A DNA stretch of 64,000 bases from Octopus vulgaris (Eukaryota). The notes under the pieces were generated by a model. It was not told where the DNA came from, did not search any database, and was given only the letters and a program-made list of their open reading frames with translations. The stretch lies in contig OX597827.1 of assembly GCA_951406725.2 (NCBI GenBank), positions 80,104,001 to 80,168,000 on the forward strand, written 5' to 3'. Positions within the stretch are counted from its first letter, which is position 1. Each line of letters opens with the position of its first letter. Position numbers and translations under genes: made by a program. Shown one piece after another: positions 4,094 to 64,000 of the stretch.

Positions 4094-6451
4094 CTTTGTA
4101 GACTTCTGGAGACTTCTGCTCATTGTCGATGTCTTCCAGTCTTCAGGATAGTAATGGCTCCTCGAATGACCGTATCTATCTGACATCTCTCCTCGATTAC
4201 CTGACATCACAGGTACACTGTTGTTACCTTGATAGATCAACTGTCTCATCTCATTGCGACATTGGTATGCCTGTTTCTCTTCTGCTGTTCTTTCAGATGA
4301 GCTATTTCTCACATTGTTACATCTCACAATACACAGGGTTATAGAAACCACAATAGCTATAGATACTATCACAGCTGCTACTACAATGATAATCAACAAT
4401 GTCGCATCTATTGTGTTATCACTTGGTAGGTGCACAGCTGTGAACATTGGTGACGTCTTGTTACTAACAGTCAGTGTCAAAGACACACTAGTTGTTGCTG
4501 ACAGAACTGGAGTACCACTGTCTTTCACAACAAACTCAAGCTCATATGATCCGGCATCATTTTGGTAAACTGTGCGAGAGTAAGATAACACACCAGTGAA
4601 CGAATCCAGTTTAAATAACTGTCTCTCGTTACCTGAAACGATTTCATACCTGAGAAAAGCATTCATGTGACTGTCTATATCAGATGCTTTCAGAACTGTG
4701 ATGTCGTTCTTACTTTGCGGATGATAGTGGACATTAAGAGTGAAAGGGTCAACACTAGGAAATGTAAAATATGGAGCATTATCATTTCTATCCAATACTT
4801 CCACTTCAACATTCACTGTGTTATTCAGAGATGGGCTTCCATTGTCTTTCACAAAAACCTCAAACTCATAGAAATCTCTGTGTTCTCTGTCTAAAGACTG
4901 GTTTGTTGAAATAAAGCCAGAGTTGATAATCTGGAATGGCAGACGATATTGCTGTTTATTTCTCAGAGAATAAGACAATTCACCTCCCTTACCAATATCT
5001 GGGTCTGTAGCATTGATAAAGCCAATAGGGAAATTAGCTTTGTCATTCTCATAGGTAAGGAACTTGAATGTGTCTTTCGTAAAGTGTGGTTCTACATCAT
5101 TCACATCCAACACTTGGATTGACAGATCTTTATCAGTTTTCAGAGCAGGTAATCCTTTATCTTCACACGACACAGTAAAGTGATAATGTTCCTGTGTCTC
5201 TCTGTCTACTGCTTTCTTTAGAACTATTTTATATTCCTTCGATCCCATTGACTGTAGTTTGAATGTGTCGTCTTTGATATGACAGTTCACCTGTCCATTG
5301 TGTCCAACATCATTGTCAGTGACCATCACATAAGCAATGAAACTACCAACTTTGATGTCTTCCAGAATGGTAGCTGTGTTGTGATTCTGTGTAGAAATAA
5401 AGTTCACATCAATATTTGGGGGATTGTTGTGTTCATTGATAACATTTACCAAAACAGTGGCTATGGAACTCAGAGGAGATGCGCCATCATCTCTGGCTTC
5501 AATGTATAATTTAAAAGACTCATCCTTATCAATTTTTGAAGATGTAGCCAAATATAATTTCCCAGTATTTTCATCTAAATTGAAGTTCCTCTTCACTTTC
5601 TCAGTAGTTTTCCTGGCAAAGTAATATGATATTTTACCATTCCTGCCAATGTCTAAATCAGTGGCAGATAATGTGACTACTGGAATGTTCTTTTTATGTT
5701 TATGTTCAATAGAGACATTGTAAATACTTTGAGAAAACAGAGGTGTATTATCATTTTCATCTTTTACAGATATTTTAACATTTAAAACAGATTCTTTTGG
5801 TGGAGTTCCCCCATCTTTAGCAATGACTTCAATATTGTAACTGTCCTTCTTTTCTCTGTCTAATTTCTCTTCTAAAATGATTCGTAATGTTGATATTTCA
5901 TCAGTCTGTTTCGCAACTGATAAAGAAAAATGTCCATTATTCTTTTTCAATTCATAAGTAATTAAGCTGTTTTCTGGACTCATATCCTTGTCAATGGCAT
6001 TAGGTATGTGTTTCTTCATACCTTTACCATCACCTTCCTCAAATTGCAAAGTGATTTCTTTCTGAGGAAACTCAGGTTGGTGGTCATTGATGTCTTCTAT
6101 TATGACTTTAATCTTTAAGATCTTCATAAATGTCTTGGATTTGTGAACAGCAACTTTAACGATTTCAAAACATTCTTTCTCATAACTACACACAGACTCA
6201 GCATCCAATGTCTCAACAGTGTACAGTTTACCTGTTCTCGTCACATTGAACAACTGTTCTCCCTTTTGTTGCAGTTGACTAAATGTAATCAAATCCTTAT
6301 TCTTTAAGAAGGAGCTGTCTGATTTCTGTAGGTCAGTAGCAATGTCCCCTATATAGGTATAGGGACCATTCTCTTCTTTAACATGGTATGTGATATCTTC
6401 ACTTAGACAACAGTGGAAGAAAGTCAATAAAAGACACAGGTGTAACAACAT
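4094..6451 (-). CDS. Protocadherin Pcdh1 large exon E2 (signal peptide, EC1-EC6, TM, proximal tail; 786 codons)
   Basis: Cadherin motifs (LDRE, DxNDNxPxF, AxDxG), EC1 C-x5-C motif CSYEKEC, TM LLIIIVVAAVIVSIAIVVSITLCIV; donor AAG|gtaagc after 4094; acceptor tttcag| places the exon start at 6507. Confidence 0.95.
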
Positions 6452-7029
6452 CTCTGGGCTTGATTTTAATACAGTATCCAGGTTGGAGATGGCTTCAAAT
6501 ATTCAGTCTGAAATAGAAATTAATACTGTCTTTAATTATTGAGCTTAAATACATTATTTCATTTGCTTAAATACATTAATATTTTTAAACTAATGAACTG
6601 ATGATCAACCATTCCAATCATTACTTACAAAGAACCCATTTTTTGGCAGTCTAAAGAAATGGTTCAATCTTGTATATATGTCTTTGCTTTCATCAAATTC
6701 ATTCTAATAGAAAATTCATTTGTGTAAATAATGTTAGAAACTAGCAATTCCCTTGGACGATGCTGGTTTCTTTTACATTTACCAGTTTAACGAATTAGTA
6801 ATCTGTATTGTGTTATATGGGACAAAAATAGATTTTAGTGAGGTTCATTATAATTTTTGTACAGATTATATTATTCAAGTTCATGTATCTTGTACAAAAA
6901 AAGACAAATTCAAAAGGGACATTTGAACTCTGTGCTGTTGTTAGAGCAGTCATGTTTGGTAGCCAGTTTTGCCTTCAAATAATTCTCTACTTCCTATGCA
7001 TGCATGTGTGTGTGTGTGTGTGTGTAAGC

Positions 7030-7180
7030 AGCTAATTGGCATCATTGCTAACATGTTGGATAGTGCTTTGCAGTAATCAGTCTAGCTCAGTGTGTTCAGA
7101 GTTCAAATACTGCCATGGTCAACTTTGTCTTTCATCCTTTTGGGGTTGATAAATGATGCACCAGTGCTGCACTGGAGTTG
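7030..7180 (+). mobile_element. Degenerate tRNA-derived SINE
   Basis: gagttcaaatactgcc...actttgtctttcatccttttggggttgataaa resembles the reverse complement of the SINE at 16825-17032; boundaries approximate. Confidence 0.55.
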
Positions 7181-7750
7181 GTTCTCCTCTTTTTCTAACT
7201 CTTTCTTTCTCTCTACCTTTTTCTCTCCCTTTGGAAGAAACTGACTGTACAAATAGACAGTAAACTGAGTTGATCCTGAATTAGTTCCCAAAGTAATCCT
7301 ACGACAAGCATTGATTCAAAGGAAGCATTTTCTATTTCTGATATATTTTTTAAGTTGGTGCAGCAAAAGAGAATCCTTTTATTATAAAAAAACTGTGACG
7401 ATACCTGTACAAAATAATAACTGATATAAACGTAGGTCGTCAGTTGGTTGATTCCTCTTGTTACTCTTTACATTGTATTGAGCAAGAGGTAGACAGAGTA
7501 AAAGAGAGATGCAGAGAGGTGATATAAGAGAGGCAAGATCATAGCACGTACAAGGATTGGTGGCAGGCAATGATAACTGTCAGACAAATAAATATTTTTC
7601 ATTGAAACTTTGCAGAGATAGGTTTTGGATTGATTAGAATTTGATTATGTCAATGAAATTTAGAATAATTATAGCATATGTTTATTGCAAATATGCAAAT
7701 GAGAAATTTGCTTTATTTAATTTTATTGAAGATAATAAATATATTTCCTT

Positions 7751-8047
7751 TCATCATCATCATCATCGTTTAATGTCCGCTTTCCATGCTGGCATGGGTT
7801 GAACGGTTGACTGAGGACTGGTGAGCCTGAGGACTGGTGAGCCAGATGGCTGCACCAGGCTCCAATCTGATCTGACAGAGCTTCTACAACTAGATGTCCT
7901 TCCTAATGCCAACCACTCTGAGAGTATAGTGTGTGCTTTTACGTGCCACCGGCACGATGGCCAGTCAAGCGGTACTGGCAACAGCCACACTCAAATGGTG
8001 TTTTTTATGTGCCACCTGCACAGGAGCCAGTCCAGTGGCACTAAGCA
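7751..8047 (-). mobile_element. 3' fragment of RTE-type LINE/SINE
   Basis: Begins (CAT)n cgtttaatgtccgctttccatgctggcatgggtt, the reverse complement of the tail at 12100-12353. Confidence 0.7.
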
Positions 8048-9840
8048 CCAAGATATTCGATAGAAGTTAAATTATAATTATTTAATGTAAGCCATATTTC
8101 CTGATATTACCAATGATGGCAAAAGTATATTTCGAGAGCATGAAATAACAGATAACACTCGTCTTTGAATAAATTCCAATAACTTCAAATGAATATAAGT
8201 GATCCTGACAACAGAAATGCAAGATTATCTCTGTAGTAAACATTATGTATTTTCACATTTACTGAAAGACAGAGGACATCAATACGTTTTGATTACATCC
8301 CATGGCGAAGACATCAGGAGGAAGACACCAAACTAATTTTCAACAAAGCCAAGTTATTTCACACATATTTCAATATCTGGGACAATAATAACACTACACC
8401 ATTAACTGTCAATATTTTATCATTAATGATAACAATACTGTAACAATACTGTAACATTATTACCTGTGAAACTAGACGAAAGAACATCCAGAACATTTTA
8501 CTAATGCTTCATTTTATGATAAATAGTAATTACACAGTATTTATTGATTTATGACCATGCACACACACAGTCGTACAGGTGATACCTGCCAATTAAAATA
8601 ATCTTAATTAAGAGACAGAGTCAAAAGAGGGTCAGTGTATAATAGTGACCCAGTAAGATGTTTCTACAACACTTCAACTACAGTTTATTTCCTGATAGAG
8701 ATCAAATGTAAGATACTGAAGCAACATTCTCTCCCACAGATAACAAAGCAAGAATGGATTCACATCTCAGATTCTGCATGTAACAAAATGATAATGATGA
8801 CACAAATTTCCAACACACAGACGTAAGTGATAAGACATTACATATTTAAAAATTAAAAACATTTGCAATTTTAGAATTAATTCTTTAGAATGTACTAATT
8901 CATACATCATAAATATATTCTCCTTAGAATAATTCTTAATTTTAATCATGATGAAGGAAACTTCAGCAAGATGGTTCTGAGTTTTAAGCAGGTCAATAAA
9001 ATAACAATCATCAATATGTTGTTATATAAGTAGAAAGGCAGGGATTCATTTATCAATAATTGCAATGTTAGAAAATCTGACAGTTCCAGAGTAATATTGC
9101 ATGGACCCAAATTTTATCAGAACCAATGAAGATTGCAAAATTATTATGAATTAATGAATCAATACTAAAATTAAAATACAACAGACATATTTCACCTATC
9201 AAATATTGATGACTAATTCCAAATATATCTTAAACATAAATATATTACATCTAAAAAAATATTTTAAAAACAAAACCAGTTAGCTAATATATTCAAGATG
9301 AGTGGTATTTTTCAATTATGCTTTAAACCAGAATAGAAAAAGGGCTTATGTTATCACTCGGGAAAAATAAACACACTCAAACACAAATGAGATAAAGATA
9401 TCTTGCAAAATATATCTATATCTGTAGTTAACATGATTATTTCTAGCATTTATATTCTCAAAGGTGAGGTTTATTCTAAAGTCTATCATTTAAGTAATTC
9501 TTGAATGAACTTCACTGACCAAAGACTAAATGATTTATTTGAAACAAAAACAAAAAAAATTCGGCAGAAAATAATTCTTTATAAGTAAAACAGAAATAAG
9601 GGAATTGCTATACACATATCCAAAATATTAAAATATCAAGTACAGAAAAAATTACTGGAATTATATTCTGTACAAGCTTTCAATTTCTTTAATTATCAAT
9701 AAATACAAAAGACAAACGAAGCCTCAACCAGATCTAATATGGCCACCATTACAATATAACATTTTGGTGTCAGAATACAGTCATAAATGAAATCATTGTT
9801 TCACATAATTTGAATAAATAATATGGAATAACAAACTTAC

Positions 9841-10328
9841 CTTCATTGTGTGTAAAATCCTTTGTTATATAAACTGTGACTTGGTCCCAATGTTCTGTTG
9901 TTAATGGTTGTCTGTGTCACTGCTGCTATGGTGTGACAATGGCTTCATGTTGATGGAATAGTGTTGGTGGTGAGTCAGTGGGAACCAGCAGTTCCCTCTC
10001 AGTCTTCCTTTGTGGATGTGTGGTGTTTAGTGTGTGTGTGTGAGTGTGTGTGAAAGGGAGGAGGAGGAGTAGGATGGGTGATGCTTACTACAGCCTCTCT
10101 CAGACTTGATGTTGCCTCTCACACACAAAGACAGAGTAGTGAGAGAACACACACTATCAGCTCCACTAACAGTCAGCCATGATAAGTCTATATAACACCA
10201 ACATGTCTGATGTGGAGAGAGACTGACATAGAAATCCTTAGAACAGAGAGGTTATATTAACAAAATATGGCTGATGTTGTTAATGTGTGGGTAATTTAAA
10301 ATGTAAATACAATATTGACAATAATAGT
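9841..10328 (-). promoter_or_regulatory. Conserved leader exon E1 / putative promoter block of Pcdh1
   Basis: ~490-bp block near-identical in six units, ending in a perfect donor AAG|gtaagt at 9841; contains (CA)n, a TTATATAG TATA-like element and TGAGTCA; TSS cannot be determined from sequence. Confidence 0.7.
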
Positions 10329-16085: not shown

Positions 16086-16824
16086 CTCTGGTCCTGATGT
16101 TAATGCAGTATCCAGAAAAAAGATGACTTGAAAAATTTGGTCTGAAAGAGAAAATATTTTGTTTCAATGAGCAATTTTGACTAGTTTCGGTTTATTTCAA
16201 TGCATGAATATTTCTTAAACAAATTAAGTGACTAGCAATCATATGTAATTATAATCTTTTCTAGCGCTTATAAAACTACCAGTTTTCCATAAAATCCTCA
16301 AAGATGATTTTATGTCATTTTATTCAACACACACAGTTTAATAAGAAATCTATTTGCATAAATATTCTTTTAAATTTATAACTCCCTTGTGATTCACTAA
16401 TTTCTTTCCAATTTATCATCTTAATCTTTCACACATTATATTTATTATGTGTCCACTAACCCAGGTAATATATTTTATATAATTACCCTCACTAATACTC
16501 AATAATTGCATTCAGATCCTATCCATTATACCCTTTATCTAAAATGTAATATATTTTAGAAGCTGTCATAGTGACATAACTATCACAACAACATTGTATT
16601 TAATTTCAATGTGAAATGCTCATTTTGATTATATACACAAATAATGGAAAGAATAGAAAACAACGGATTTTAATAACAATTCAGAAATTTCATGTTTTGT
16701 TCTCCAGCTGTTTCCATGACCCATATGATAACATAATCAATTATATAATGATTATCTAATTATTTGTACATATTAAATTAACTTGATTCAATGTTATGTG
16801 ATAGACATTTCATTTACACTTATT

Positions 16825-17032
16825 CTTTTCACCTCAAGGTACAAGGTCTGAAATTTTGGGGGAGGGGGCCAGTCGATTTGATCGACCACCAGTAAGTAGC
16901 TGGTACTTATTTTATCGACCCCGAAAGGATGAGGGCAAAGGTGACCTCAGCGGAATTTGAACTCAGAACGTAAAGACAGATGAAAGACTGCTAAGCATTT
17001 CGCTTGGCATGCTAATGTTTCTGCCAGCTCAC
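16825..17032 (-). mobile_element. tRNA-derived SINE (octopus-type)
   Basis: Minus strand reads gagctggcagaaacattagc...gagttcaaattccgctgaggtcacctttgccctcatcctttcggggtcgataaaataagtaccag (A/B boxes plus core); paralogous copy at 35421-35622. Confidence 0.75.
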
Positions 17033-17419
17033 TTCTACAATTGTTCACTCTATTATATGTAACATTCAATGAACAACAGGTTCCTCTGGAAACTGGTTTC
17101 CAACTACGTCTCCTAATAGTTTCCTGCATTTATGGTGATAATGAGAGTGGGAAAGAGACATCTGTGAGACTCGAGGGGAAGAAATACTGGAACGTATTTC
17201 GTTTTTAAAGTACTTTATAATTAGTTTTAATTTCTTTTGCCAATTTGATAATATATTGGAGCAAACGATCTACACATATATATATATACATACAGAACCA
17301 ATGTAAAAATCTACATTACACACATACATACACTTACAAAATATACATCTACTGAATAAGTTCTAATGAAATGTCTTCCACATCATATTGATACGTAACA
17401 AAGTTTCACAGTAATATTT

Positions 17420-18530
17420 TTGTTCAGTATGAAACCTGGAGTGAATAACATTGAATTGTTCTATGATTTGGTTCTCTGATGAAGAAAAAGTCTTCTTGGC
17501 CCACCACATCAACATGCAATATACAACTGACCACAAAAGAAATGTGGATTTGTAGAAACCCAAAAGACTGTCCTTGAGACTTGATGATGACCACAAAAAC
17601 ATGTGTCACTGGAAAACTGCATGAGAACTTCTGGTCAGATGAAAGAAATGAGTGGAATGAAAGCATCTCTTCCCCTGACAAAACCAGTCATAATGGTGGC
17701 TTTCATTACATGAAGCATAAAAGAGTTGTCAGCAACTCTTGTATAGTAATAGTGATGCAGTGCATCTAAATATCCTTGCAACATTCCTGCATTCATTTCG
17801 GGATTGTAAGGGGAGACCACAATGGAATAAAGAGAATTGAGTGATTCTGTTGGATAACTACCAACAATGCTAACATCAACTACAGTGAGAACAGATTTTG
17901 ACAGATACCTGCTGTATGACAATAGCATTGATCTCCCGCAGAGTGTCACTTTAGTAGCTAGGATGGCATGTTCGGAAAGCCAGTCATGGTTTCTATAATT
18001 CTGTGGGAATCTAGAATAAATATTCAGTAGTATGTCTCGAGATGTATTCACAACTGTTTCATAATATTTATTGGCATTTTGACATCTCCATTTACAGTGT
18101 CAAATGGTAACTGACCATTGCCCCCAGCTGAAGGAAAACCTTGGAACACTGGGTTACTTGGACATCTCTATTAAGTGCAACTCCCAAGTTGGTAGAAAGA
18201 AGAAGTCTATTAATCTCTTCTCATATCACAGGATGCCTTCAGACATGCTTTCAACTTATCAGCAGGTGTCCTCTTTACAATCAGAATTGGACTCAAATCA
18301 CTAGACAGCATGACTGTAGCGAGGCAAATGATGTTGGTGTTATGTCTGACAATTAGTCAGGTGCAAAAGAGAACCACAACAGCAACAACATGAGACATTG
18401 TGCACTCATACTGTTCAGCCTGGTCTGCTTCAAAACATTTCAATTCATTGTCAATATTAAATAGAAGACTGCCATTGTGTGCCTCGTTGACTGGCAGCTG
18501 AAAAGCAGCTTAATAACCAAGAAAGATTCC
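17420..18530 (-). mobile_element. Degenerate Helitron Pif1-like helicase remnant
   Basis: Frameshifted fragments in expected order: AAFQLPVN, ECTMSH (Walker B region), KGTPADKLKACLKAS, NYRNHDWLSEHAILATK, YPTESLNSL, IIKSQGQS; recognised from known Helitron helicase motifs. Confidence 0.8.
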
Positions 18531-19331
18531 CAAAATTATTATGAATTACTTAATCGCTATTAAAATCTATCACAAGAGGAAAGCTTTTAACTCTCAGATA
18601 TTAATGGCTTAGTCCCAAATATATCTTAAACACAGATATATTAGGCTTTAAAGATGCTTTTAAAGGGAAAACCAGTTAGTTAACAGACATAATATATTCA
18701 AGATGGATGGTGTTTGTAAATTATGTTTTAAATCAGAATGTACATAAGAGGGAGCATCTGTGAAGTTCAAGACAAACAAATACTGCAGGGTGTTTCTGTT
18801 TTAAAGAATTTACTTATCAGTTTTCTTGCAAATTTTTAAATCTTTTGCTTTTGCTACCACTTATAGACAAACAAATATGAAACGAGAAACCTCTAAAAAA
18901 ATGTATCCATTTTTGTGGAAAACATAATTATTTCTAGCATTTATATTCTGAAATGTGAAGTTTATTTAAGTAATTGTTGAATAAACTTCACTGACCAAAC
19001 ACTAAATGATTTATTTGAAACACATTACAAAACAGACACCATTCAAACAGGAATTATTTGTAAGGAAATCAGAAATAAAAGAACTGCCATAAAATATATC
19101 CAGAATTCTCAACAAAGTTTTAAAATATCCAGTTTGGGGAAATTATTCAAATTATATTCTGTACAAGCTTTCAATTTCTTTAATTATCAATAAATACAAA
19201 AGACAAACGAAGCCTCAACCAGATCTAATATGGCCACCATTACAATATAACATTTTGGTGTCAGAATACAGTTATAAATAAAATCATTATTTCACATAAT
19301 TTGAATAAATAATATGGAATAACAAACTTAC

Positions 19332-19818
19332 CTTCATTGTGTAAAATCCTTTGTTGTATAAACTGTGACTTGGTCCCAATGTTCTGTTGTTAATGGTTGT
19401 CTGTGTCACTGCTGCTATGGTGTGACAATGGCTTCATGTTGATGGAATAGCGTTGGTGGTGAGTCAGTGGGAACCAGCAGTTCCCTCTCAGTCTTCCTTT
19501 GTGGATGTGTGGTGTTTAGTGTGTGTGTGTGTGTGAGTGTGTGAAAGGGAGGAGGAGGAGTAGGATGGGTGATGCTTACTACAGCCTCTCTCAGACTAGA
19601 TGTTGCCTCTCACACACAAAGACAGAGTAGTGAGAGAACACACACTATCTGCTCCACTAACAGTCAGCCATGATAAGTCTATATAACACCAACATGTCTG
19701 ATGTGGAGAGAGACTGACATAGAAATCCTTAGAACAGAGAGGTTATATTAACAAAATATGGCTGATGTTGTTAACGTGTGTGTAATTTAAAATGTAAATA
19801 CAATATTGACAATAACAG
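19332..19818 (-). promoter_or_regulatory. Conserved leader exon E1 / putative promoter block of Pcdh2
   Basis: Near-identical to 9841-10328; donor AAG|gtaagt at 19332. Confidence 0.7.
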
Positions 19819-26398: not shown

Positions 26399-27029
26399 CT
26401 TGTTTTGGTGTTAATACAGTATCCAAAGAAAGGATAGCTTTAAAAATTCAATCTGAAACAGAAAACATTTTGTCTAAATGAGCAATTTTGGCTTCTTTCA
26501 ATTTACTTCAATGCATAAATATCTTTTAAACAAATTAAGTCTGTGCATAACTAAAATAAGCCTATGCCATTCAAACGGAATATATTGTCAATGTAATGGT
26601 TTTTTTACTACGATAATTTATTAAATACATAGGACAGATAATAGGTAATAAAAATACAATGGATGTCATTTGAATATTAATTGGTATTGTATTAGTGAAT
26701 GGTAATTATAGAAAATATATAACTTTAGATTACAGGTGTTTCACTGAAGCTTCACATATCATAGAAACCCGAGAAAAATTCAACTTCAGACATGTATTTG
26801 CATTTATCTCAGGTTTCTACGAGGTATGAAGCTTCTGAGACTGTTGACAATTGATAATCAAAGTATCGATAATCCAAGCAAGATCTACTTGATGCTGATG
26901 ATGATGATCAATACTATTAAGGATATGTTTTACTTAATCTAATTTTGAATTGATACATAACACATTTTAATAGTAATTTTCACAGTAATTTTTCTTATTC
27001 AGTATGAGCTGTGGAGTAGAGAGAATTTA

Positions 27030-27630
27030 ATTGTTTCATGGTTTGGTGATCTGAAGGTAAAAAACAGTTTTATAACCAAGTCTCTGACCTACCACATCAA
27101 CATGCAATATACAGCTGATCATGAGACAAATGTGGACCTGTAAGTTAGAGTGTAGCAACCCTGAGGGACAGTCCTTGAGACCTGATGATGGCCTCAAAAA
27201 TATGACAGCATCACAGGGAAACCCAGTTGAAGGAAAACCTTGGAACACTGGGTTACTTGGACATCTCTATTAAGTGCAACTCCCAAGTTGGTAGAAAGAA
27301 GAAGTCTTTTATCTCTTCTCATATCACAGGATGCCTTCAGACATGCTTTCAACTTATCAGCAGGTGTCCCCTTTACAATCAGAATTGGACTCAAATCCCT
27401 AGACAGCATGACTGTAACGAGGCAAATGATGTTGGTGTTATGTCTGACAATTAGTCAGGTGCAAAAGAGAACCACAACAGCAACAACATGACACATTGTG
27501 CACTCATACTGTTCAGCTTGGTCTGCTTCAAAACATTTCAATTCATTGTCAATATTAAATAGAAGACTGCCATTGTGTGCCTCGTTGACTGGCAGCTGAA
27601 AAGCAGCTTAATAACCAAGAAAGATTCCCA
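27030..27630 (-). mobile_element. Internally deleted Helitron helicase remnant
   Basis: Right part nearly identical to 38099-38500; left part reads GQSLRVATL*LTGPHLSHDQLYIAC (helicase motif V/VI-like). Confidence 0.75.
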
Positions 27631-28436
27631 AAATTATTATGAATTACTTAATCGCTATTAAAATCTATCACAAGAGGAAAGCTTTTAACTCTCAGATATT
27701 AATGACTAGTCCCAAATATATCTTAAACACAGATATATTAGGCTTTAAAGATGCTTTTAAAGGGAAAACCAGTTAGTTAACAGACATAATATATTCAAGA
27801 TGGATGGTGTTTGTAAATTATGCTTTAAATCAGAATATACATAAGAGGGAGCATCTGTGAAGTTCAAGACAAACAAATACTGCAGGGTGTTTCTGTTTTA
27901 AAGAATTTACTTATCAGTTTTCTTGCAAATTTTTACATCTTTTGCTTTTGCTACCACTTATAGACAAATAAATATGAAACAAGAAACCTCTTAAAATTGT
28001 ATCTATTTTTGTGGATAACATAATTATTTCTAGCATTTATATTCTGAAATGTGAAGTTTCTTTAAGTAATTGTTGAATAAACTTCACTGACCAAAGACTA
28101 AATGATTTATTTGAAACACATTACAAAACAGACACCATTCAAATAGGAAGGTAGTAATTATTTGAAAGGAAATCAGAAATAAAAGAACTGCCATAAAATA
28201 TATCCAGAATTCTCAGCAAAGTTTTAAAATATCCAGTTTGGGGGAAATTATTCAAATTATATTCTGCACAAGCTTTCAATTTCTTTAATTATCAATAAAT
28301 ACAAAAGACAAACGAAGCCTCAACCAGATCTAATATGGCCACCATTACAATATAACATTTTGGTGTCAGAATACAGTTATAAATGAAATCATTATTTCAC
28401 ATAATTTGAATAAATAATATGGAATAACAAACTTAC

Positions 28437-28926
28437 CTTCATTGTGTAAAATCCTTTGTTGTATAAACTGTGACTTGGTCCCAATGTTCTGTTGTTAATG
28501 GTTGTCTGTGTCACTGCTGCTATGGTGTGACAATGGCTTCATGTTGATGGAATAGTGTTGGTGGTGAGTCAGTGGGAACCAGCAGTTCCCTCTCAGTCTT
28601 CCTTTGTGGATGTGTGGTGTTTAGTGAGTGTGTGTGTGTGAGTGTGTGTGAAAGGGAGGAGGAGGAGTAGGATGGGTGATGCTTACTACAGCCTCTCTCA
28701 GACTAGATGTTGCCTCTCACACACAAAGACAGAGTAGTGAGAGAACACACACTATCAGCTCCACTAACAGTCAGCCATGATAAGTCTATATAACACCAAC
28801 ATGTCTGATGTGGAGAGAGACTGACATAGAAATCCTTAGAACAGAGAGGTTATATTAACAAAATATGGCTGATGTTGTTAATGTGTGTGTAATTTAAAAT
28901 GTAAATACAATATTGACAATAATAGT
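28437..28926 (-). promoter_or_regulatory. Conserved leader exon E1 / putative promoter block of Pcdh3
   Basis: Near-identical block; donor AAG|gtaagt at 28437. Confidence 0.7.
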
Positions 28927-30068: not shown

Positions 30069-30099
<31 letters not shown>

Positions 30100-30100
30100 T

Positions 30101-34693: not shown

Positions 34694-35420
34694 CTCTGGT
34701 CCTGATGTTAATGCAGTATCCAGAAAAAAGATGACTTGAAAAATTTGGTCTGAAAGAGAAAATATTTTGTTTCAATGAGCAATCTTGACTAGTTTCGGTT
34801 TATTTCAATGCATGAATATTTTTTAAACAAATTAAGTGACTAGCAATCATATGTAATTATAATATTTTCTAGCGCTTATAAAACTACCTGTTTTCCATAA
34901 AATCTTCAGAGATGTTTTTATGTCATTGTATTCAACACACACAGTTTAATAAGAAATCTATTTGCATAAATATTCTTTTAAATTCATAACTCCCTTGTGT
35001 TTCACTAATTTCTTTCCATTTTATCATCTTAATCTTTCACACATTATATTTATTATGTGTCCACTAACCCGGGTAATATATTTTATATAATTACCCTCAC
35101 TAATACTCAAAAATTGCATTCAGATGCTATCCATTATACCCTTTATCTAACATGTAATATATTTTAGAAGCTGTCATAGTGACATAACTATCACAACAAC
35201 ATTGTATTTAATTTCAATGTGAAATGCTCATTTTGATTATGTACACAAATAATGGAAAGAATAGAAAACAACGGATTTTAATAACAATTCAGAAATTTCA
35301 TGTTTTGCTCTCCATGACCCACATGATAACATAATCAATTATATAATGATTATCTAATTATTTGTACATATTAAATTAACTTGATTCAATGTTATGTGAT
35401 AGACATTTATCTACACTTAT

Positions 35421-35622
35421 TCTTTTCACCTCAAGGTACAAGGTCTGAAATTTTGGGGGAGGGGGCCAGTCGATTTGATCGACCACCAGTAAGTAGCTGG
35501 TACTTATTTTATCGACTCCGAAAGGATGAGGGCAGAGGTGACCTCAGCGGAATTTGAACGTAAAGACAGATGAAAGACTGCTAAGCATCTCGCTTGGCAT
35601 GCTAATGTTTCTGCCAGCTCAC
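35421..35622 (-). mobile_element. tRNA-derived SINE (duplicate of 16825-17032)
   Basis: Same flanks and sequence with a small internal deletion. Confidence 0.75.
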
Positions 35623-36019
35623 TTCTACAGTTGTTCACTCTATTACATGTAACATTCAATGAACAAAAGTTTCCACTGGAAACTGGTTTCCAACTAAGTC
35701 TCCTAACAGTTTCCTGCATTTATAGTGATAATGAGAGTGGTAAAGACACATCTGTGAGACTCGAGGGGAAGAAATACTGGAACATATTTCGTTTTTAAAG
35801 TACTTTATAATTAGTTTTAATTTCTTTTGCCAATTTGATAATATATTGGAGCAAACAATCTACACATATATATATATACATACAGAACCAATGTAAAAAT
35901 CTACATTACACACATACATACACTTACAAAATATACATCTACTGAATAAGTTCTAATGAAATGTCTTCCACATCATATTGATACATAACAAAGTTTCACA
36001 GTAATATTTTTGTTCAGTA

Positions 36020-36457
36020 TGAAACCTGGAGTGAATAACATTGAATTGTTCTATGATTTGGTGCCCTGATGAAGAAAAAGGTGTTCTTGGCCCACCACAT
36101 CAACATTCAATATACAACTGACCACAAAAGAAATGTGGATTTGTAGAAACCCCAAGGACTGTCCTTGAGACTTGATGATGACCACAAAAACATGTGTCAC
36201 TGGAAAACTGCATGAGAACTTCTGGTCAGATGAAAGAAATGAGTGGAATGAAAGCATCTCTTCCCTTGACAAAACCAGTCATAATGGTGGCTTTCATTAC
36301 ATGAAGCATAAAAGAGTTGTCAGCAACTCTTGTATAGTAATAGTGATGCAGTGCATCTAAATATCCTTGCAACATTCCTGCATTCATTTCGGGATTGTAA
36401 GGAGAGACCACAATGGAATGAAGAGAATTGAGTGATTCTGTTGGATAACTACCAACA
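36020..36457 (-). mobile_element. Helitron helicase remnant, 3' part (interrupted by CR1)
   Basis: Homologous to about 17420-17866 (YPTESLNSL, IIKSQGQSL). Confidence 0.75.
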
Positions 36458-37806
36458 TCACCTGTCAACTATCGCCCAGTCAGTCTCACTAGCTGTATTG
36501 CAAAACTGATGGAATCGTGTGTCAGAGAAACACTCTGGAACTTCTAGAGCTCTCACAGTCTCATCCGACCCTCACAATATGGATTTGTCCCTAACTCCAG
36601 CTGCAGTGACCAGCTTGTCGAGTTCCTTGAGGACATTACTCAGATCACTGACAGTGGCTCATGGGTGGATGTTGTCTACCTTGACTTTGCTAAGGCTTTC
36701 AACTCTGTGCCACACAAAAGGCTTATGGTGAAACTCTCTGCAATGGGTGTGGGGGATGACCTTTTTAACTGGTTGAAATCCTTCATCCTCAGCCGAAAGG
36801 ATGTAGTCACAGTTCTAGGACAGCACTCTACACCATATGAGATGTCATCGGGTGTACCATAGGGATCTGTCCTTGGTCCCCTCCTGTTTGTGGCATACAT
36901 TAATGACATAGATGCCAATTTAAAGAATGCCACAGTATTGAAATATGCAGACAACATCAAGCTGTACCTTGAAATCAAGAGGACTGATCCTGATGTCTAC
37001 AACTCTTTCCTGCAATCAGACCTAGACACAATGCAGCAATGGATCACAGACTGGCAACTGAAACTGGCTGTGGACAAGTGTACCACCATGCATTTTGGGA
37101 GAAAAAAACCCTGCGTCCACATACTCCCTCCACAACACTGATATCAAGAAATCCTCTTGCGAGCGTGACCTAGGCATCACTGTCAGCAGTGATTTGCGTT
37201 GGACAAAGCATATCTCTAAAATTGTCAAGAAGGCTGAGGGTGTCTTGGCATCACTCAGCAAGACTTTTGTTAGCCGCTCTCCAGCCATCTATTTAAAACT
37301 GTATACAGCTATGGTACGACCACACTTGGAATTCGCATCATCAGTTTCGAATCCCTATTTTGCTCAGAACATTGACCTCCTGGAATCTGTCCAGAGACGT
37401 GCAACCAAACGCATACCCTCCATCAGACACCTACCATATTCTGAGCGCCTTGTTTCCCTGGGCATGGATTCACTGAAGCTCCGGCGTCTGGCGACGGACT
37501 TGGTAAACACCCACAAGGTTATCAACCACCTCACCAACAACAACACTGAACACCTTTTTGATCTCCATGTGTCTAACACACGTGGACATGCCTACAAAGT
37601 CAGAAAACAGCACAGCTCCCATGACTTTCGGAAACATATTTTCACGCTCAGGGTTGCTAAAGCGTGGAATAAACTGCCTGCATCAGTTGTTGACTGCCAT
37701 GACACTGCATCCTTTAAGGCCCTCATGCTTCCCGAAATCCGTCGAAACTACACCTGATTATATATACACTTTAGATGAGTTGTAGTGCACCTGAGCACTG
37801 TACACA

Positions 37807-37837
<31 letters not shown>
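36458..37837 (+). mobile_element. 5'-truncated CR1-type LINE (reverse transcriptase pseudogene)
   Basis: RT motifs NYRPVSLTS, QYGF, VVYLDFAKAFNSVPH, SGVP*GSVLGPLLF, KYADN, VRPHLEF, QRRATK; in-frame stop and frameshift; (ATT)n tail; empty site visible near 17866. Confidence 0.9.
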
Positions 37838-37840
<3 letters not shown>

Positions 37841-38510
37841 CTAACATCAACTACAGTGAGAAAAGATTTTGACAGATACCTGCTGTATGACAATAGCATT
37901 GATCTCCCGCAGAGTGTCACTTTAGGAGCTAGGATGGCATGTTCGGAAAGCCAGTCATGGTTTCTATAATTCTGTGGGAATCTAGAATAAATATTCAGTA
38001 GTATGTCTCCAGATGTATTCACAACTGTTTCATAATATTTATTGGCATTTTCATGTGTCCATTTACAGTGTCAACTGGTAACTGACCATTGCTCCCAGCT
38101 GAAGGAAAACCTTGGAACACTGGGTTACTTGGACATCTCTATTAAGTGCAACTCCCAAGTTGGTAGAAAGAAGAAGTCTTTTATCTCTTCTCATATCACA
38201 GGATGCCTTCAGACATGCTTTCAACTTATCAGCAGGTGTCCCCTTTACAATCAGAATTGGACTCAAATCCCTAGACAGCATGACTGTAACGAGGCAAATG
38301 ATGTTGGTGTTATGTCTGACAATTAGTCAGGTGCAAAAGAGAACCACAACAGCAACAACATGACACATTGTGCACTCATACTGTTCAGCTTGGTCTGCTT
38401 CAAAACATTTCAATTCATTGTCAATATTAAATAGAAGACTGCCATTGTGTGCCTCGTTGACTGGCAGCTGAAAAGCAGCTTAATAACCAAGAAAGATTCC
38501 CAAAATTATT
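37838..38510 (-). mobile_element. Helitron helicase remnant, 5' part
   Basis: NYRNHDWLSEHAILAPK, KGTPADKLKACLKAS, ECTM motifs; homologous to 17867-18530. Confidence 0.78.
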
Positions 38511-39308
38511 ATGAATTACTTAATCGCTATTAAAATCTATCACAAGAGGAAAGCTTTTAACTCTCAGATATTAATGACTAGTCCCAAATATATCTTAAAC
38601 ACAGATATATTAGGCTTTAAAGATGCTTTTAAAGGGAAAACCAGTTAGTTAACAGACATAATATATTCAAGATGGAAGGTGTTTGTAAATTATGCTTTAA
38701 ATCAGAATATACATAAGAGGGAGCATCTGTGAAGTTCAAGACAAACAAATACTGCAGGGTGTTTGTGTTTTAAAGAATTTACTTATCGGTTTTCTTGCAA
38801 ATTTTTAAATCTTTTGCTTTTGCTACCACTCATAGACAAATAAATATGAAACAAGAAACCTCTAAAAAAAGTATCTATTTTTGTGGATAACATAATTATT
38901 TCTAGCATTTATATTCTGAAATGCGAAGTTTATTTAAGTAATTGTTGAATAAACTTCACTGACCAAAGACTAAATGATTTATTTGAAACACATTACAAAA
39001 CAGACACCATTCAAACAGGAAGGGAGAAATTATTTGCAAGGAAATCAGAAATAAAAGAACTGCCATAAAATATATCCAGACTTCTCAACAAAGTTTTAAA
39101 ATATCCAGTTTGGGGGAAATTATTCAAATTATATTCTGTACAAGCTTTCAATTTCTTTAATTATCAATAAATACAAAAGACAAACGAAGCCTCAACCAGA
39201 TCTAATATGGCCACCATTACAATATAACATTTTGGTGTCAGAATACAGTTATAAATGAAATCATTATTTCACATAATTTGAATAAATAATATGGAATAAC
39301 AAACTTAC

Positions 39309-39790
39309 CTTCATTGTGTAAAATCCTTTGTTGTATAAACTGTGACTTGGTCCCAATGTTCTGTTGTTAATGGTTGTCTGTGTCACTGCTGCTATGGTGT
39401 GACAATGGCTTCATGTTGATGGAATAGTGTTGGTGGTGAGTCAGTGGGAACCAGCAGTTCCCTCTCAGTCTTCCTTTGTGGATGTGTGGTGTATAATGTG
39501 TGTGTGTGTGTGTGAAAGGGAGGAGGAGGAGTAGGATGGGTGATGCTTACTACAGCCTCTCTCAGACTAGATGTTGCCTCTCACACACAAAGACAGAGTA
39601 GTGAGAGAACACACACTATCAGCTCCACTAACAGTCAGCCATGATAAGTCTATATAACACCAACATGTCTGATGTGGAGAGAGACTGACATAGAAATCCT
39701 TAGAACAGAGAGGTTATATTAACAAAATATGGCTGATGTTGTTACTGTGTGTGTAATTTAAAATGTAAATACAATATTGACAATAATAGT
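39309..39790 (-). promoter_or_regulatory. Conserved leader exon E1 / putative promoter block of Pcdh4
   Basis: Near-identical block; donor AAG|gtaagt at 39309. Confidence 0.7.
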
Positions 39791-44648: not shown

Positions 44649-45894
44649 CTCTGGTCCTGATGTTAATACAATATCCAGATGAGAGATGTCTTCAAATATT
44701 CAGTCTGAAATAGAAAATAGTTTTGTTTAAGGAATGACTTTAAATAAACTTTCTTTCTTACTTGAATGCATTAATATTTTTTAATCGAATACAGAAACAA
44801 GCAATTTTTTAGATTAACATTAATTTCCAACACATACAAAAGCCTTTCTGCTTTATAGGAAGTCCAAAGAAATGCATGGAGGTTAGTTTTTCACTGCATT
44901 CAACAAATTGAGTTTAAAAACAAATTCAATTTTATAAATTATGTGTGAAGTTTAATAACTCCTTTGTATCCTGCTGGATTCTTTTATGTTTACCAGTTTA
45001 ATGATTGACTTATAAGCATACTTACTGATGTATAAAACACATTTATGTATAATGAGCTTACCTAACTATGAAGTCCAGCAAGAAAGTATCTCACATGTAT
45101 AATATGTACTGATTTCTTTTTCAGTGTCATGGTATATGGGGAAGGAACAGTTTTAGTTAGATTTATTATAATTGTTCTATAAAGGACACTGACAGATGTG
45201 GGACCATTGTAATTAGGCCTTAGAAGTTCACACACTGTAACATCAACTTTGTAAGGATTACACAAACAGAGTTATTATTATATGTAATCAAAGTTGTTTA
45301 CTGAAAACTCATTTTATGACTGCTGGAGGCGCTAAGTATCCCCAACAATAACAACAATTAAACCAGTAAAAGAGCACAAAATTTAAAGAATCTACACACA
45401 AAACTCTCAACATACAATTTGATTTGAAACTCTGTTTCCAAATATTAAACATTTTAAATATTGGTCTTCACTGTCCAATCTTGTGCTTACAACAGTTTGT
45501 TCCCAATGCAGGAAAAAACCCCATCTCAGTCTGTGGAGTCACCCCATGGTTATATAAACACCAGTTTCAGCCCCTCTTTGTCTTTGGCAGCAGCTATTGA
45601 CCACACACCACATCTCTATTGGACCAGCACTGATAAACTAGACACCAGTTGGTTTCGCAGCATTCTTCAACCAGCCGTTGCCTGTCGTCTTCACTGCAGC
45701 AAGAGACAGCAGAGCATAGCCCCAGCAACAGACCCTGCAGAACTGAAGTCTTTTGAATTTTTGTTCTAGACTGTTATATTAACATCATTTGCTTTTGGCT
45801 TTCTTCTATTTTTATATCTTGAGGAGTAAATCATTGCTTCTTCAACTTACTCAAATCTTATCATTTTTTTTCCCTTCTGTCCTCCTTACAGGTC

Positions 45895-46045
45895 AATTAC
45901 AGCACTCAACTTGTACTTATTTTGTCAACCGCAAAAAGATAAAAGACAAAGTTGATCCCAGCAATATTTGAAATCAGAATGTAAAGTCGGAAGAAATGCC
46001 ACTTAACATCTTGTCCAACACAATAACAATTCTGCCAGCTCACAG
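45895..46045 (-). mobile_element. Degenerate tRNA-derived SINE
   Basis: gtacttattttgtcaacc...atttgaaatcagaatgtaaag...ttctgccagctcac resembles 16825-17032. Confidence 0.55.
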
Positions 46046-46805
46046 CCTTCATTCAAAGGAAATATTATAATGATGAAACGCTTAGAAGAACCAATGAAGA
46101 TTAGAGAATTATTATGAATTAATAAATCAATACTAAAACTAAATTACAACAAGAAATATTTTAACTATCAGATATTGATGACTAATCCCAAATATATCTT
46201 GAACAAAAATATATTACATCTAAAAAAATATTTTAACAAACAAAATAAATAATATATTCAAAATGGGGGGTGTTTGTGAATTATGTTTTACATCAAAACA
46301 GACAAGGATTTTTGTTACCATTCAGGATAATAAACTCACAAATATGAAAATATATCTACTTTTGTCGATAACATAATTATTTCTAGCATTTATATTCTGA
46401 AAAGTGAGGTTTATTTTAAACTCTATTATTTAAGTAAATTCTTGACTAAACCTCATTGACCAAACACTAAATGATTTATTTGAAACACATTACAAAACAG
46501 ACACCATTCAAACAGGAAGGTAGTAATTATTTGAAAGGAAATCAGAAATAAAAGAACTGCTATAAAATATATCCAGACTTCTCATCAAAGTTTTAAAATA
46601 TCCAGTTTGGGGAAAATTATTCAAATTATATTCTGTACAAGCTTTCAATTTCTTTAATTATCAATAAATACAAAAGACAAACGAAGCCTCAACCAGATCT
46701 AATATGGCCACCATTACAATATAACATTTTGGTGTCAGAATACAGTTATAAATGAAATCATTATTTCACATAATTTCAATAAATAATATAGAATAACAAA
46801 CTTAC

Positions 46806-47298
46806 CTTCATTGTGTAAAATCCTTTGTTGTATAAACTGTGACTTGGTCCCAATGTTCTGTTGTTAATGGTTGTCTGTGTCACTGCTGCTATGGTGTGAC
46901 AATGGCTTCATGTTGATGGAATAGTGTTGGTGGTGAGTCAGTGGGAACCAGCAGTTCCCTCTCAGTCTTCCTTTGTGGATGTGTGGTGTTTAGTGTGTGT
47001 GTGTGTGTGTGTGAGTGTGTGTGAAAGGGAGGAGGAGGAGTAGGATGGGTGATGCTTACTACAGCCTCTCTCAGACTAGATGTTGCCTCTCACACACAAA
47101 GACAGAGTAGTGAGAGAACACACACTATCAGCTCCACTAACAGTCAGCCATGATAAGTCTATATAACACCAACATGTCTGATGTGGAGAGAGACTGACAT
47201 AAAAATCCTTAGAACAGAGAGTTATATTAACAAAATATGGCTGATGTTGTTAATGTGTGTGTAATTTAAAATGTAAATACAATATTGACAATAATAGT
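46806..47298 (-). promoter_or_regulatory. Conserved leader exon E1 / putative promoter block of Pcdh5
   Basis: Near-identical block; donor AAG|gtaagt at 46806. Confidence 0.7.
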
Positions 47299-54369: not shown

Positions 54370-57019
54370 CTCTGGTCTTGACGTTAATGCAATATCCAAG
54401 GAAATGTTGATTTCAAATTTTTCATCTGGAAAATAAATAAATAGCCTTTAAGTAATAAAAAATAAGTTGTAATTTTATTTGAAGTGGCTTTTAAATAACC
54501 AGATTTATGTTAATGTGAAAGGATGCCATTTCTATGAATAAAGAAGATTCTTTTATTGTGAAATATAAGTAGCAATGAAGAGGAGACAGAGATTAGATTT
54601 TATTTGTTGATTCCACCTTTAAAATACTCTTTGAGAACCTTAATTTCCCTGAGTACCACTTAGTTCCCTCTCTTTTTACTTCCAAAGAATATCTTCATAT
54701 TCTAATGAGTACAGATATAAAATCAAAAAATTACATCTCATAACTCCTTACAAATCTTTTTATTGATACTTTACTGATATAATATAATCCTCATAACTCA
54801 ACATTTCAGGTGTCTATTCATATTCTCATCTTAATGATTAATTAGTTCCTTCTTTATAGTTACTTTCTATAGAGAAAAATAAACAAACACTCATGATATG
54901 ATACTATCAAGGCAGTATTAGGATTTCTACATTTACAGCATTACGAGTTAGTGCTATACTACTCTACAGAATAAATCTATAGGATTCGGTCATCACAAAC
55001 GTCAATATTGTATTGCAATAGAAGACAGCCAATGCACCAGTAATTATGAGTTAGCTCCCTTGCAGATCACTAAACAAACCTGTTAGAAAACGATATAATT
55101 TCCTATTTAAAAAAAAATTCGTTAATAATGTATAAAATAGGAAATATTGCAAAAATAACCTTAATTCGATAACTTTGAGATTACTTTGATGTTATAAACG
55201 ACATAAATACTGGGAAAATTATATTTATACCTCTATGGCCCTCTTTAAATACTTGTAAATTATCACAGCTATAAGAACAATGTTAGAGAAACGATCCCAA
55301 TATAATGTACCATCAACAGCAGGAAAAGGTAAATATTATAACAAGAAGACATTTTTACGACAACTCTACAGAAACAAAAGAGGAAACTGAAAATAGAATA
55401 TCCATCGCAAAATGAGAATGAAACTACATCTTTTGATATCAGATTGGTTTTGAGTGAGCAGACATTCCAGAAGTGGCTATCCCAACTTTTCTTCAAAAGT
55501 AACATATCGTGGACTCTGCCATGTAATGTCTTCTTTCTTTTTTAGGATGGTAGGCTGTGATTTGAGTGAGATTTGGCTGCTATTTCAAGAAAGTGGAGAA
55601 ACCAACACTAGTTCTCTCACTGACCATTAATGATGTAGGTCACAATCACAATTTCAACAAAACGACATGACATCTAATACCATTTAATTAATATCTACCA
55701 ACTTATTCGTTAACATAACATCCCATATTTAGTCAAAAGTAGTTTAATCTTTGCCCAGTTGCTCTGTCTGGATGTCAACTTTATCCAAACCAGTCTATAA
55801 AAATATTTCAAATCATTTATCCATTTGTATAATTAAACAATATTCAATTTATCCATCAGTAGGCAGGTTTACAAGAGATTTATATAAGGTCATTAACAGA
55901 ATTCTGTTTTTGTCTTTTGTTGTGTCCACCAAATGGTGGGGACTGGGTGTGGTGTGAACGCTTATGTTTCTTGGACCCTTTCAAAAATTCAATTGTGTGT
56001 GTGAGAAAAAGATGGGGGGGGGGGAGATAGAAAAGGAGAGAAGGGATATCAACTCCTGTAAATAAGGAGTAGCTTATGAAGCCCAAAGGGATGTAAAGTA
56101 AATTTGGTTTCTGTGCGATTTGAACTCAGAACCCAGAAGACTTCAGACCATACCAATTCCCTATTGTGACTCTATGAGAGACAATATTACCTAACGATAT
56201 ATTTGAGAAGAGCAATGAAATACAACACAGAAACAATAAAGACAGTTTAACCAACAAATAATCGTTTTTATAAATAAAGTAAAATATCCATAGAAGAAAC
56301 TGAGCTAGAAATTATAAAACTGTTACATTTTAATGGTTGAAATATACAAAATAATTCTAATTAGCAAATGTGATTCAAGTGTTCAGAAATGATCTAGTCA
56401 TGATAGGTAGTATTTAAAATTTGTATAAAGACAAAGCATAAAGATGAAGGAAAACAGGAGAAGCAGCAATTATATATTGTACATATACATACATAGAAAC
56501 GCAGCCAAATACATTGATTATATATAGACACATACACTCACACAATAGCATATATACCTAGGTTCATACATATTTTAACCTTCTTTTAGTATTATTTATA
56601 TTTCCAATAATGTGTTTATATTTTACACGGTATCAAATTATTTCCATAAAGCATTTATAAATGTAAATATTCAACAAGAAAAATATTCTAGTGAAAGGCA
56701 GAGGCACGTCAACTGGAATATAATGGTTTAGCAAAGAAATGAAAGTTGCAGTGAATTTATAAAGATCCGACAAAGATGTGTGAAAAAAACATCACATCAA
56801 AATGATTACAAATCATATTCCTGAACAATTCCTGCTTCCCTACAATTATCAACAAAATATTTGAAAGCCACAATAGAAAAGGAAGTCATTAAAAAAGGCA
56901 TAATACAAATCAAATATGGCCACCATTAAATTACTCCAGTCTGATGTTCCAATATGCCTATGTACAGGAAACTGTTACTTTACATGACTAAATAAATAAT
57001 ATAGAATAAACAAACTTAC

Positions 57020-57511
57020 CTTCATTGTGTAAAATCCTTTGTTGTATAAACTGTGACTTGGTCCCAATGTTCTGTTGTTAATGGTTGTCTGTGTCACTGC
57101 TGCTATGGTGTGACAATGGCTTCATGTTGATGGAATAGTGTTGGTGGTGAGTCAATGGGAACCAGCAGTTCCCTCTCAGTCTTCCTTTGTGGATGTGTGA
57201 TGTTTAGTGTGTGTGTGTGTGTGTGAGTGTGTGAGAAAGGGAGGAGGAGGAGTAGGATGGGTGATGCTTACTACAGCCTCTCTCAGACTAGATGTTGCCT
57301 CTCACACACAAAGACAGAGTAGTGAGAGAACACAAACTATCAGCTCCACTAACAGTCAGCCATGATAAGTCTATATAACACCAACATGTCTGATGTGGAG
57401 AGAGACTGACATAGAAATCCTTAGAACAGAGAGGTTATATTAACAAAATATGGCTGATGTTGTTAATGTGTGTGTAATTTAAAATGTAAATACGATATTC
57501 ACAATAATAGT
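57020..57511 (-). promoter_or_regulatory. Conserved leader exon E1 / putative promoter block of Pcdh6
   Basis: Core near-identical to the other five although both flanks are diverged; donor AAG|gtaagt at 57020. Confidence 0.7.
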
Positions 57512-63989: not shown

Positions 63990-64000
63990 CTCTGCTTTTG

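What the first reader, a model, noticed from the sequence alone, without database searches (positions are those of the whole stretch)
6466..9846. A 15-codon uORF created by splicing is retained in all six testable genes
Seen: E1 ends ...ATG AAG|gt. Joined to the E2 acceptor it reads MKTEYLKPSPTWILY* (Pcdh1), MKTKFFKSSFFWILH* (Pcdh2, Pcdh4), MKIEFLKLSFLWILY* (Pcdh3), MKTEYLKTSLIWILY* (Pcdh5) and MKMKNLKSTFPWILH* (Pcdh6). Length, K7 and the WIL[YH]-TAA end are invariant even though this UTR stretch is otherwise divergent between paralogues. The stop lies 12-14 nt before the main ATG. Inference: a selected translational attenuator or peptide-dependent uORF, possibly tuning isoform dosage.
Basis: partly seen in the sequence, partly recalled or inferred. 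Interest (0 to 1): 0.7.

Follow-up and report, generated by a model that had tools for sequence, protein, structure and literature searches.

The report
Upstream reading frame in octopus protocadherins
Neighbouring octopus nerve-cell adhesion genes each carry a short reading frame just ahead of the real start that probably lowers how much protein is made, but sister genes have lost or fused it, so it looks like an ordinary upstream frame rather than a special regulatory peptide.

Summary
The window is a tandem array of octopus protocadherin genes (minus strand; gene 1 equals an O. vulgaris protein over 780 of 780 residues compared). The splice-made 15-codon uORF is present in 6 of 6 testable genes, as described. 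The junction is indirectly supported: RNA-type contigs break at the predicted acceptor, and annotated paralogues begin with the same frame. Retention is weaker evidence than it looks: exon 1 is 99.6% identical between copies and genes 2 and 4 share one leader. There is no peptide-level signal: pN/pS is 0.49 in the uORF frame, 0.47 in the +1 frame, and within neutral simulation. Among 15 sister-gene leaders read from protein models, two deletion classes fuse the uORF in frame with the protocadherin, one loses W12, one loses the stop and three cannot encode W. Some constraint remains: a 15-nt end block is conserved (scan p 0.019) and neutral survival of the frame is 0.03-0.06. Best reading: an ordinary, peptide-independent damper in a two-uORF leader. 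No translation data exist here.

The parts
9841..9846 (-). Gene 1: first two codons (ATG AAG) of the splice-made uORF, at the end of exon 1
   Evidence: a contig joint uses the donor beside 9841 in run X10
6466..6507 (-). Gene 1: codons 3-15 and TAA of the uORF, at the start of exon 2
   Evidence: contigs of X1 and X2 stop matching at 6509
6466..6480 (-). 15-nt conserved end block (W-I-L-[YH]-stop in the uORF frame)
   Evidence: 13 of 15 columns invariant; exact in 6 of 6 genes
6508..9840 (-). Gene 1 intron 1 (GT..AG, 3333 nt), with high-copy repeats near 6990-7300 and 7630-8110
   Evidence: unique parts without cover in X1 and X2, covered in X19
9901..9948 (-).
   Evidence: inside contigs 9875-10001 of X1 and X2
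9729..10328 (-). Homogenised exon-1/promoter block shared by the copies
   Evidence: alignment; blastn to gene 6
4094..6451 (-). Gene 1 main ORF in exon 2: signal peptide, cadherin repeats, transmembrane segment
   Evidence: equals P0115 over 780 of 780 residues compared
16100..19337 (-). Gene 2 uORF (19332-19337 joined to 16100-16141)
26411..28442 (-). Gene 3 uORF (28437-28442 joined to 26411-26452); 12-nt spacer, so its stop is in frame with the main ORF
34708..39314 (-). Gene 4 uORF (39309-39314 joined to 34708-34749); leader identical to gene 2
44663..46811 (-). Gene 5 uORF (46806-46811 joined to 44663-44704)
54384..57025 (-). Gene 6 uORF (57020-57025 joined to 54384-54425); second in-frame ATG at the acceptor; main ORF frameshifted in this sequence

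Best explanation
Each gene has a two-exon 5' leader with at least two AUG uORFs. Shown in sequence: uORF-a (15 codons, in exon 1), a 52-54 nt gap, uORF-b (15 codons, across the splice junction), a 12-14 nt gap, then the main AUG. Inferred: scanning ribosomes that start at uORF-b stop too close to the main AUG to re-acquire initiator tRNA, so uORF-b lowers protocadherin output whatever its peptide says. The main ORF is reached by leaky scanning, or by ribosomes that finish uORF-a, pass uORF-b's AUG and restart 112-116 nt later. The six copies share it mainly because exon 1 is homogenised by recent duplication or gene conversion, with mild constraint on the end of the leader. In sister genes the same AUG gives an N-terminal extension or an overlapping frame, the usual three fates of an upstream AUG.
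For: Anatomy and A at -3 for both upstream AUGs. Junction: X1 record 5 matches 6377-6509 with 0 differences and 13 letters left over; X2 record 29 matches 6332-6509 with 27 left over; 6509 is where a join to an exon ending in AG must break; X10 shows a joint to 9841 with donor-type ends. P0008, P0124 and P0125 start with two residues, then nine, then W12, the spacing of this junction. No peptide signal: pN/pS 0.49 (uORF frame), 0.47 (+1), 0.88 (+2), 0.22 (signal peptide); neutral runs reach 0.49 or less in 16-28%. Homogenisation: exon 1 99.6% identical; codons 421-600 of exon 2 99.8-100% identical with no synonymous differences in genes 1-5; conversion already suggested for cephalopod arrays (PMC9068888, passages). 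Family variation: of 15 distinct leaders, 6 are compatible with the full motif and 9 are not. uORF coding regions are mostly neutral and under 1% encode conserved peptides (PMC7889888, passages); re-initiation depends on uORF length and distance (PMC5972666, section 5 part 1).
Against: No translation data: initiation at either AUG is not shown. The exact joint is not among the 15 of 151 joints displayed, the leftover letters of the two contigs were not shown, and the runs are only guessed to be RNA. Neutral survival of frame plus stop is only 0.034-0.059 and of the end block 0.0003-0.0015 under uniform rates (block chosen after seeing it, scan-corrected 0.019). The other two frames carry stops in 4 of 6 and 3 of 6 copies while the uORF frame has none. 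K7 and L14 each change only synonymously in the window. The 15 outside leaders come from predicted protein models, which over-sample fusions and cannot show leaders with a stop in the main frame; P0125 and the stop-loss leader of P0139 each rest on one species.
Confidence: 0.6

Rival explanations
1. Peptide-dependent arrest uORF (class I conserved-peptide type): the W-I-L-[YH]-stop end stalls the ribosome and blocks scanning to the main AUG.
For: End block and stop position kept in 6 of 6 window genes; pN/pS 0.21 for codons 12-15, from only two variable columns; 8 of 15 outside leaders are compatible with W12, L14 and the stop. Conserved C-terminus plus stop is the class I pattern (PMC4330380, passages).
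Against: No third-position variation in the block in the window, so conservation is of bases, not shown to be of residues. Whole-uORF pN/pS is not frame-specific. W12 impossible in a class seen in two species; I13 changed in 2 leaders; stop lost or deleted in 3 leader types; no W possible in 3 more. Critical regions in the tested plant cases span 12-26 residues, not 4.
Confidence: 0.1
2. The conserved thing is a 15-nt RNA or DNA motif near the acceptor (splicing enhancer or protein-binding site); the uORF ends there by coincidence and matters little.
For: 13 of 15 bases invariant, including third positions; scan p 0.019; the main-frame reading of the block is more stable than its upstream neighbours in models of three species.
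Against: No Rfam match in 6300-10500; leader folds no better than shuffles in 5 of 5 (z 0.22 to -1.09); no pairing with exon 1 or the intron start in 6 of 6 (p 0.21-0.94); no other exact copy in the window; partly deleted in P0008/P0124 and P0125.
Confidence: 0.15
3. Stress-regulated delayed re-initiation as in ATF4/GCN4: uORF-a is permissive, uORF-b inhibitory, and eIF2-alpha phosphorylation raises protocadherin output.
For: Two uORFs in that order, 52-54 nt and 112-116 nt after uORF-a's stop; 15 codons is under the 30-codon limit quoted for mammals (PMC5972666).
Against: ATF4's first uORF has 3 codons and its second overlaps the main ORF (PMC5972666, passages); neither holds here. uORF-a lies in the homogenised block, so its retention says nothing. 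Three further ATGs lie upstream (10229, 10204, 10180) and the transcript start is unknown.
Confidence: 0.1
4. The exon-1 donor is not joined to these acceptors and the uORF is a paper construct.
For: The exact joint is not among the rows shown; contigs are short and shared between paralogues.
Against: Contig breaks at 6509 in runs of two studies, donor use at 9841, empty unique intron; gene models from two species start in this frame with W at 12.
Confidence: 0.05

Closest known systems
Canonical non-overlapping AUG uORF and its sister classes, overlapping uORF and N-terminal extension (classes as defined in PMC7889888)
   Same: AUG start, in-frame stop before the main AUG, near-neutral coding region; sister genes show the extension class (P0008, P0124, P0125) and probably the overlapping class (one leader of P0139).
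   Different: Start and stop lie in different exons, and the fate of one shared AUG differs between tandem paralogues.
Class I conserved-peptide uORFs (plant CPuORFs; arg-2 and gpUL4 uORFs as cited in PMC4330380)
   Same: Conserved C-terminal residues and stop position in the six window genes.
   Different: No frame-specific low pN/pS, only 4 conserved end residues, losses within the family, no test of stalling.
ATF4/GCN4 two-step re-initiation leaders (PMC5972666)
   Same: An upstream uORF followed by a second one placed to block the main AUG.
   Different: First uORF 15 codons rather than 3; second ends before the main AUG rather than overlapping it; no stress data.
Cephalopod clustered protocadherin arrays (PMC9068888, PMC6339937)
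   Same: Head-to-tail multi-exon genes made by full-gene duplication, with homogenised stretches.
   Different: The passages I saw do not describe the non-coding first exon or its uORFs.

Membership tests
Canonical AUG uORF | AUG in the 5' leader with an in-frame stop before the main AUG | tested here: met
   6 of 6 genes
Canonical AUG uORF | The leader exists as a spliced transcript | tested here: inconclusive
   Contig breaks at 6509, donor at 9841 used, gene models agree; exact joint not displayed
Canonical AUG uORF | Translated, and lowers main ORF output | not testable with these tools
   Needs ribosome profiling or reporters; one search found 0 papers with octopus, ribosome profiling and protocadherin
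Class I conserved-peptide uORF | Ka/Ks below neutral in the uORF frame (criterion of PMC2075485) | tested here: not met
   pN/pS 0.49 against 0.47 in the +1 frame; reached by 16-28% of neutral runs. Power is low: 5 sequences of 13 codons.
Class I conserved-peptide uORF | C-terminal residues and stop position conserved across homologues | tested here: not met
   Met in 6 of 6 window genes but compatible in only 6 of 15 leaders from protein models
Class I conserved-peptide uORF | Repression lost on frameshift or alanine change, kept on synonymous change | not testable with these tools
   Reporter test as in PMC4330380
ATF4/GCN4-type leader | Very short permissive first uORF and an inhibitory later uORF | tested here: inconclusive
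   Order fits; first uORF is 15 codons, second does not overlap
ATF4/GCN4-type leader | Output rises with eIF2-alpha phosphorylation | not testable with these tools
   No data
Cephalopod clustered protocadherin | Signal peptide, cadherin repeats with a Cadherin_2 first repeat, tandem same-strand array | tested here: met
   Pfam PF00028 and PF08266 above cut-off; seven copies on one strand; named matches

The most novel reading that the evidence does not exclude
The array keeps one near-identical promoter and first exon ending in a fixed AUG, and each paralogue's short exon-2 leader decides what that AUG does: a repressing uORF, an overlapping frame, or a longer signal peptide that turns the inhibitory start into a productive one. 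Selection on these leaders would set protein dose per isoform after transcription, a way to tune protocadherin codes in a lineage that lacks the vertebrate variable-first-exon scheme.
Probability: 0.2. Interest if true: 0.6.

Novelty: new member of a known kind. Interest (0 to 1): 0.27.

Why it matters
How cephalopods control their many protocadherins is open, and I found no paper on their 5' leaders (Creative Commons library only). The natural variants (stopped, fused, overlapping) are a ready-made allelic series for a reporter test of isoform dosage. But uORFs occur in about half of mammalian transcripts (PMC5972666), and nothing here shows function, so the finding is modest.

Tried and rejected
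No whole genome is held for this window, so no further paralogues could be read as DNA. No listed run is on record as RNA; 16 of 22 are guessed RNA, and 4 of 22 were laid. A search for short protein fragments spanning the leader found no candidate. A search among longer proteins gave 4 hits and no new leader of this subfamily. The metagenome scan gave 1 distant locus at 28% identity, not used. The back-inference was off by one residue and was redone; only one search is used. One of 16 leaders was dropped because its upstream residues come from another exon of a fused model. Rejected: RNA structure, Rfam family, docking-type pairing of the block with exon 1 or the intron start, further copies of the block (20 matches at up to 3 mismatches, 16.5 expected, 6 exact). 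Rejected: near-cognate start at the CTG/TTG opening the block, since it is out of frame in gene 3 and the main frame shows pN/pS 0.88. Rejected as evidence: that about 10 of 109 relatives start with M-K (my count, no control), so an ancestral role of the exon-1 AUG as true start stays untested. P0016 (Argonauta) starts M-K plus 13 residues before the signal methionine, but I could not align it to the leader. No ancestral sequence was computed; the neutral simulation starts from observed copies. Earlier findings of the scan: none returned. No supplementary files were read; those of PMC9068888 may hold gene models that bear on the first exon.

Full report
Setting. The window holds seven head-to-tail protocadherin genes on the minus strand, each with one long coding exon of about 790 codons (Pfam PF00028 and PF08266) and two short downstream coding exons. 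Gene 1 equals P0115 and gene 7 equals P0135, both named O. vulgaris proteins, over 780 of 780 residues compared. Such arrays are known: full-gene duplications with suggested gene conversion, without the vertebrate variable-first-exon scheme (PMC9068888, passages; PMC6339937, passages).

Observation. Six copies of an upstream exon end in ATG AAG followed by a GT donor. Gene 7's leader lies beyond the window.

Is the junction real? I laid 4 of 22 listed runs on 5700-10500 at 85% likeness. Three are guessed to be RNA and one looks like DNA: it covers 29 of 30 bins, against 17, 16 and 20. X1 record 5 matches 6377-6509 with no difference and leaves 13 letters over; X2 record 29 matches 6332-6509 and leaves 27. 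Position 6509 is where a join to an exon ending in AG must stop matching. X10 shows a joint to 9841 with donor-type ends, but its other side was placed at 6211 with unknown letters between, probably a paralogue. The exact joint 6507/9841 is not among the 15 rows shown of 151, and contigs cannot give strand, start or level. Independent support comes from gene models: P0008 (O. vulgaris) and P0124 (O. sinensis) begin MKINNVNLPNSWTSRPE, and P0125 (O. vulgaris) begins MRMNKLCSPYPWILSRTE, each followed by the usual signal peptide. Both have W at position 12, the spacing this junction predicts. I rate the junction about 95% likely.

How much does retention mean? An 84-nt stretch just before the exon-1 ATG is 99.6% identical between copies, and codons 421-600 of exon 2 are 99.8-100% identical with no synonymous differences in genes 1-5. 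The start codon is therefore one inherited observation. Genes 2 and 4 share their leader, leaving five sequences. On a tree of the 56-nt leader (length 0.90, transition bias 7.0), simulation from each observed copy kept an open frame in 13-20% of runs, the stop in 27-29%, and both in 3.4-5.9%. That is borderline evidence of constraint. The other frames carry stops in 4 of 6 and 3 of 6 copies. The last 15 nt vary in 2 columns against 17 of the 27 before them (Fisher 0.003; 0.019 after a scan correction). So a conserved block is probably real.

Is the peptide selected? pN/pS is 0.49 in the uORF frame, 0.47 in the +1 frame, 0.88 in the +2 frame and 0.22 in the signal peptide. Neutral runs reach 0.49 or lower in 16-28% of cases. 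In the block, one variable column is synonymous (L14) and one is not (Y/H15), and third positions do not vary. K7 changes synonymously in gene 6. With five short sequences the power is low, but there is no frame-specific signal.

What sister genes show. Among 153 stored proteins, 44 signal-peptide starts of this subfamily were found, 21 with ten or more residues before them, giving 16 distinct leaders; I dropped one whose upstream residues come from another exon. From main-frame residues one can list which codons the shifted frame allows. Of 15 leaders: 6 are compatible with W-I-L-x-stop; 2 keep W, L and the stop but not I13; 1 class, seen in O. bimaculoides and O. sinensis, cannot have W12; 1 (in P0139) cannot have the stop at codon 16; 2 are in-frame fusions; 3 form a class in which no W is possible, and gene 7's last ten leader bases fit that class. 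The fusions shorten the 56-nt leader to 45 and 48 nt, that is by 11 and 8 nt, removing the stop (arithmetic). The 11-nt type occurs in two species and three copies, with no X in the models, so it is unlikely to be an assembly slip. K7 is N or C there. Caveats: these are predicted models; fusions are over-sampled because they lengthen the annotated protein; leaders with a main-frame stop are mostly invisible; compatible does not mean shown.

A missed part. Exon 1 holds another 15-codon uORF (ATG 9948) whose stop ends 52-54 nt before the exon-1 terminal ATG and 112-116 nt before the main ATG, in 6 of 6 genes. It lies inside deeply covered contigs (9875-10001). Both upstream ATGs have A at -3; the main ATG has G at -3 in five genes and A in gene 3. 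Three more ATGs lie at 10229, 10204 and 10180; whether they are in the mRNA is unknown.

Mechanism. Shown: the anatomy above. From established work: re-initiation needs a short uORF and enough distance to re-acquire the ternary complex (PMC5972666, section 5 part 1); most uORF coding regions evolve neutrally and under 1% encode conserved peptides (PMC7889888, passages). Inferred: the splice-made uORF diverts ribosomes and ends too near the main AUG for efficient restart, so it damps output independently of its peptide; the first uORF may let some ribosomes pass it. Its stop also lies upstream of later exon junctions, so decay by NMD is possible (general knowledge, not tested). In fused paralogues the same AUG makes a precursor with 17-18 extra residues before the signal peptide. 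Confidence 0.6. Rivals: a nucleotide motif (0.15), an arrest peptide (0.1), stress-regulated re-initiation (0.1), no such junction (0.05). Tests of structure, Rfam and long-range pairing were negative.

Comparison and novelty. It works like a canonical non-overlapping uORF. It fails two tested marks of class I conserved-peptide uORFs: low Ka/Ks (PMC2075485, passages) and a family-wide conserved end (PMC4330380, passages). It resembles ATF4-type leaders in order only (PMC5972666, passages). Five searches found no description of these leaders (listings and abstract starts only). Verdict: a real, probably undescribed, but ordinary feature. The boldest reading not excluded is that paralogue-specific leaders set isoform dose from a shared promoter and AUG (probability 0.2). 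Interest 0.27.

Noticed in passing
window 54186-54188 (gene 6): One extra A relative to gene 5 shifts the main ORF, which stops after 74 codons; a pseudogene or an assembly slip in an A run. The uORF of this gene is intact.
   Followed up: partly
window 9729-10328 and copies near 19340, 28440, 39310, 46810, 57025: About 500 nt of promoter and exon 1 are near-identical in all six genes, including gene 6 whose flanks are divergent. Near-identical promoters raise the question of how isoform choice is made.
   Followed up: partly
exon 2 of genes 1-5: Patchy homogenisation: codons 61-120 and 361-779 are 97.6-100% identical, codons 121-180 only 77%, so diversity is concentrated in the middle of the ectodomain's first half.
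   Followed up: partly
window 10786-10914 and 10328: The last coding exon of gene 2 ends only about 450 nt before the conserved exon-1 block of gene 1; the other units look similarly tight.
   Followed up: no
window 63990-64000 (gene 7): The ten bases before gene 7's ATG fit a different, shorter leader class seen in P0112, P0119 and P0126.
   Followed up: partly
window 1-3012: No match for gene 1's last coding exon was found in the window, although six other copies were; it probably lies beyond position 1.
   Followed up: no
window 11372-12028, 17635-18099, 30001-30495, 37062-37757: Open frames of 154-231 codons in introns or spacers that look like transposon remnants (LINE-like, one helicase-like; resemblance recalled). 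Pfam found no family for the three tested.
   Followed up: partly
P0016 (Argonauta hians): Model begins M-K plus 13 residues before the signal methionine, possibly a third in-frame fusion of the same upstream AUG in a more distant octopod.
   Followed up: no
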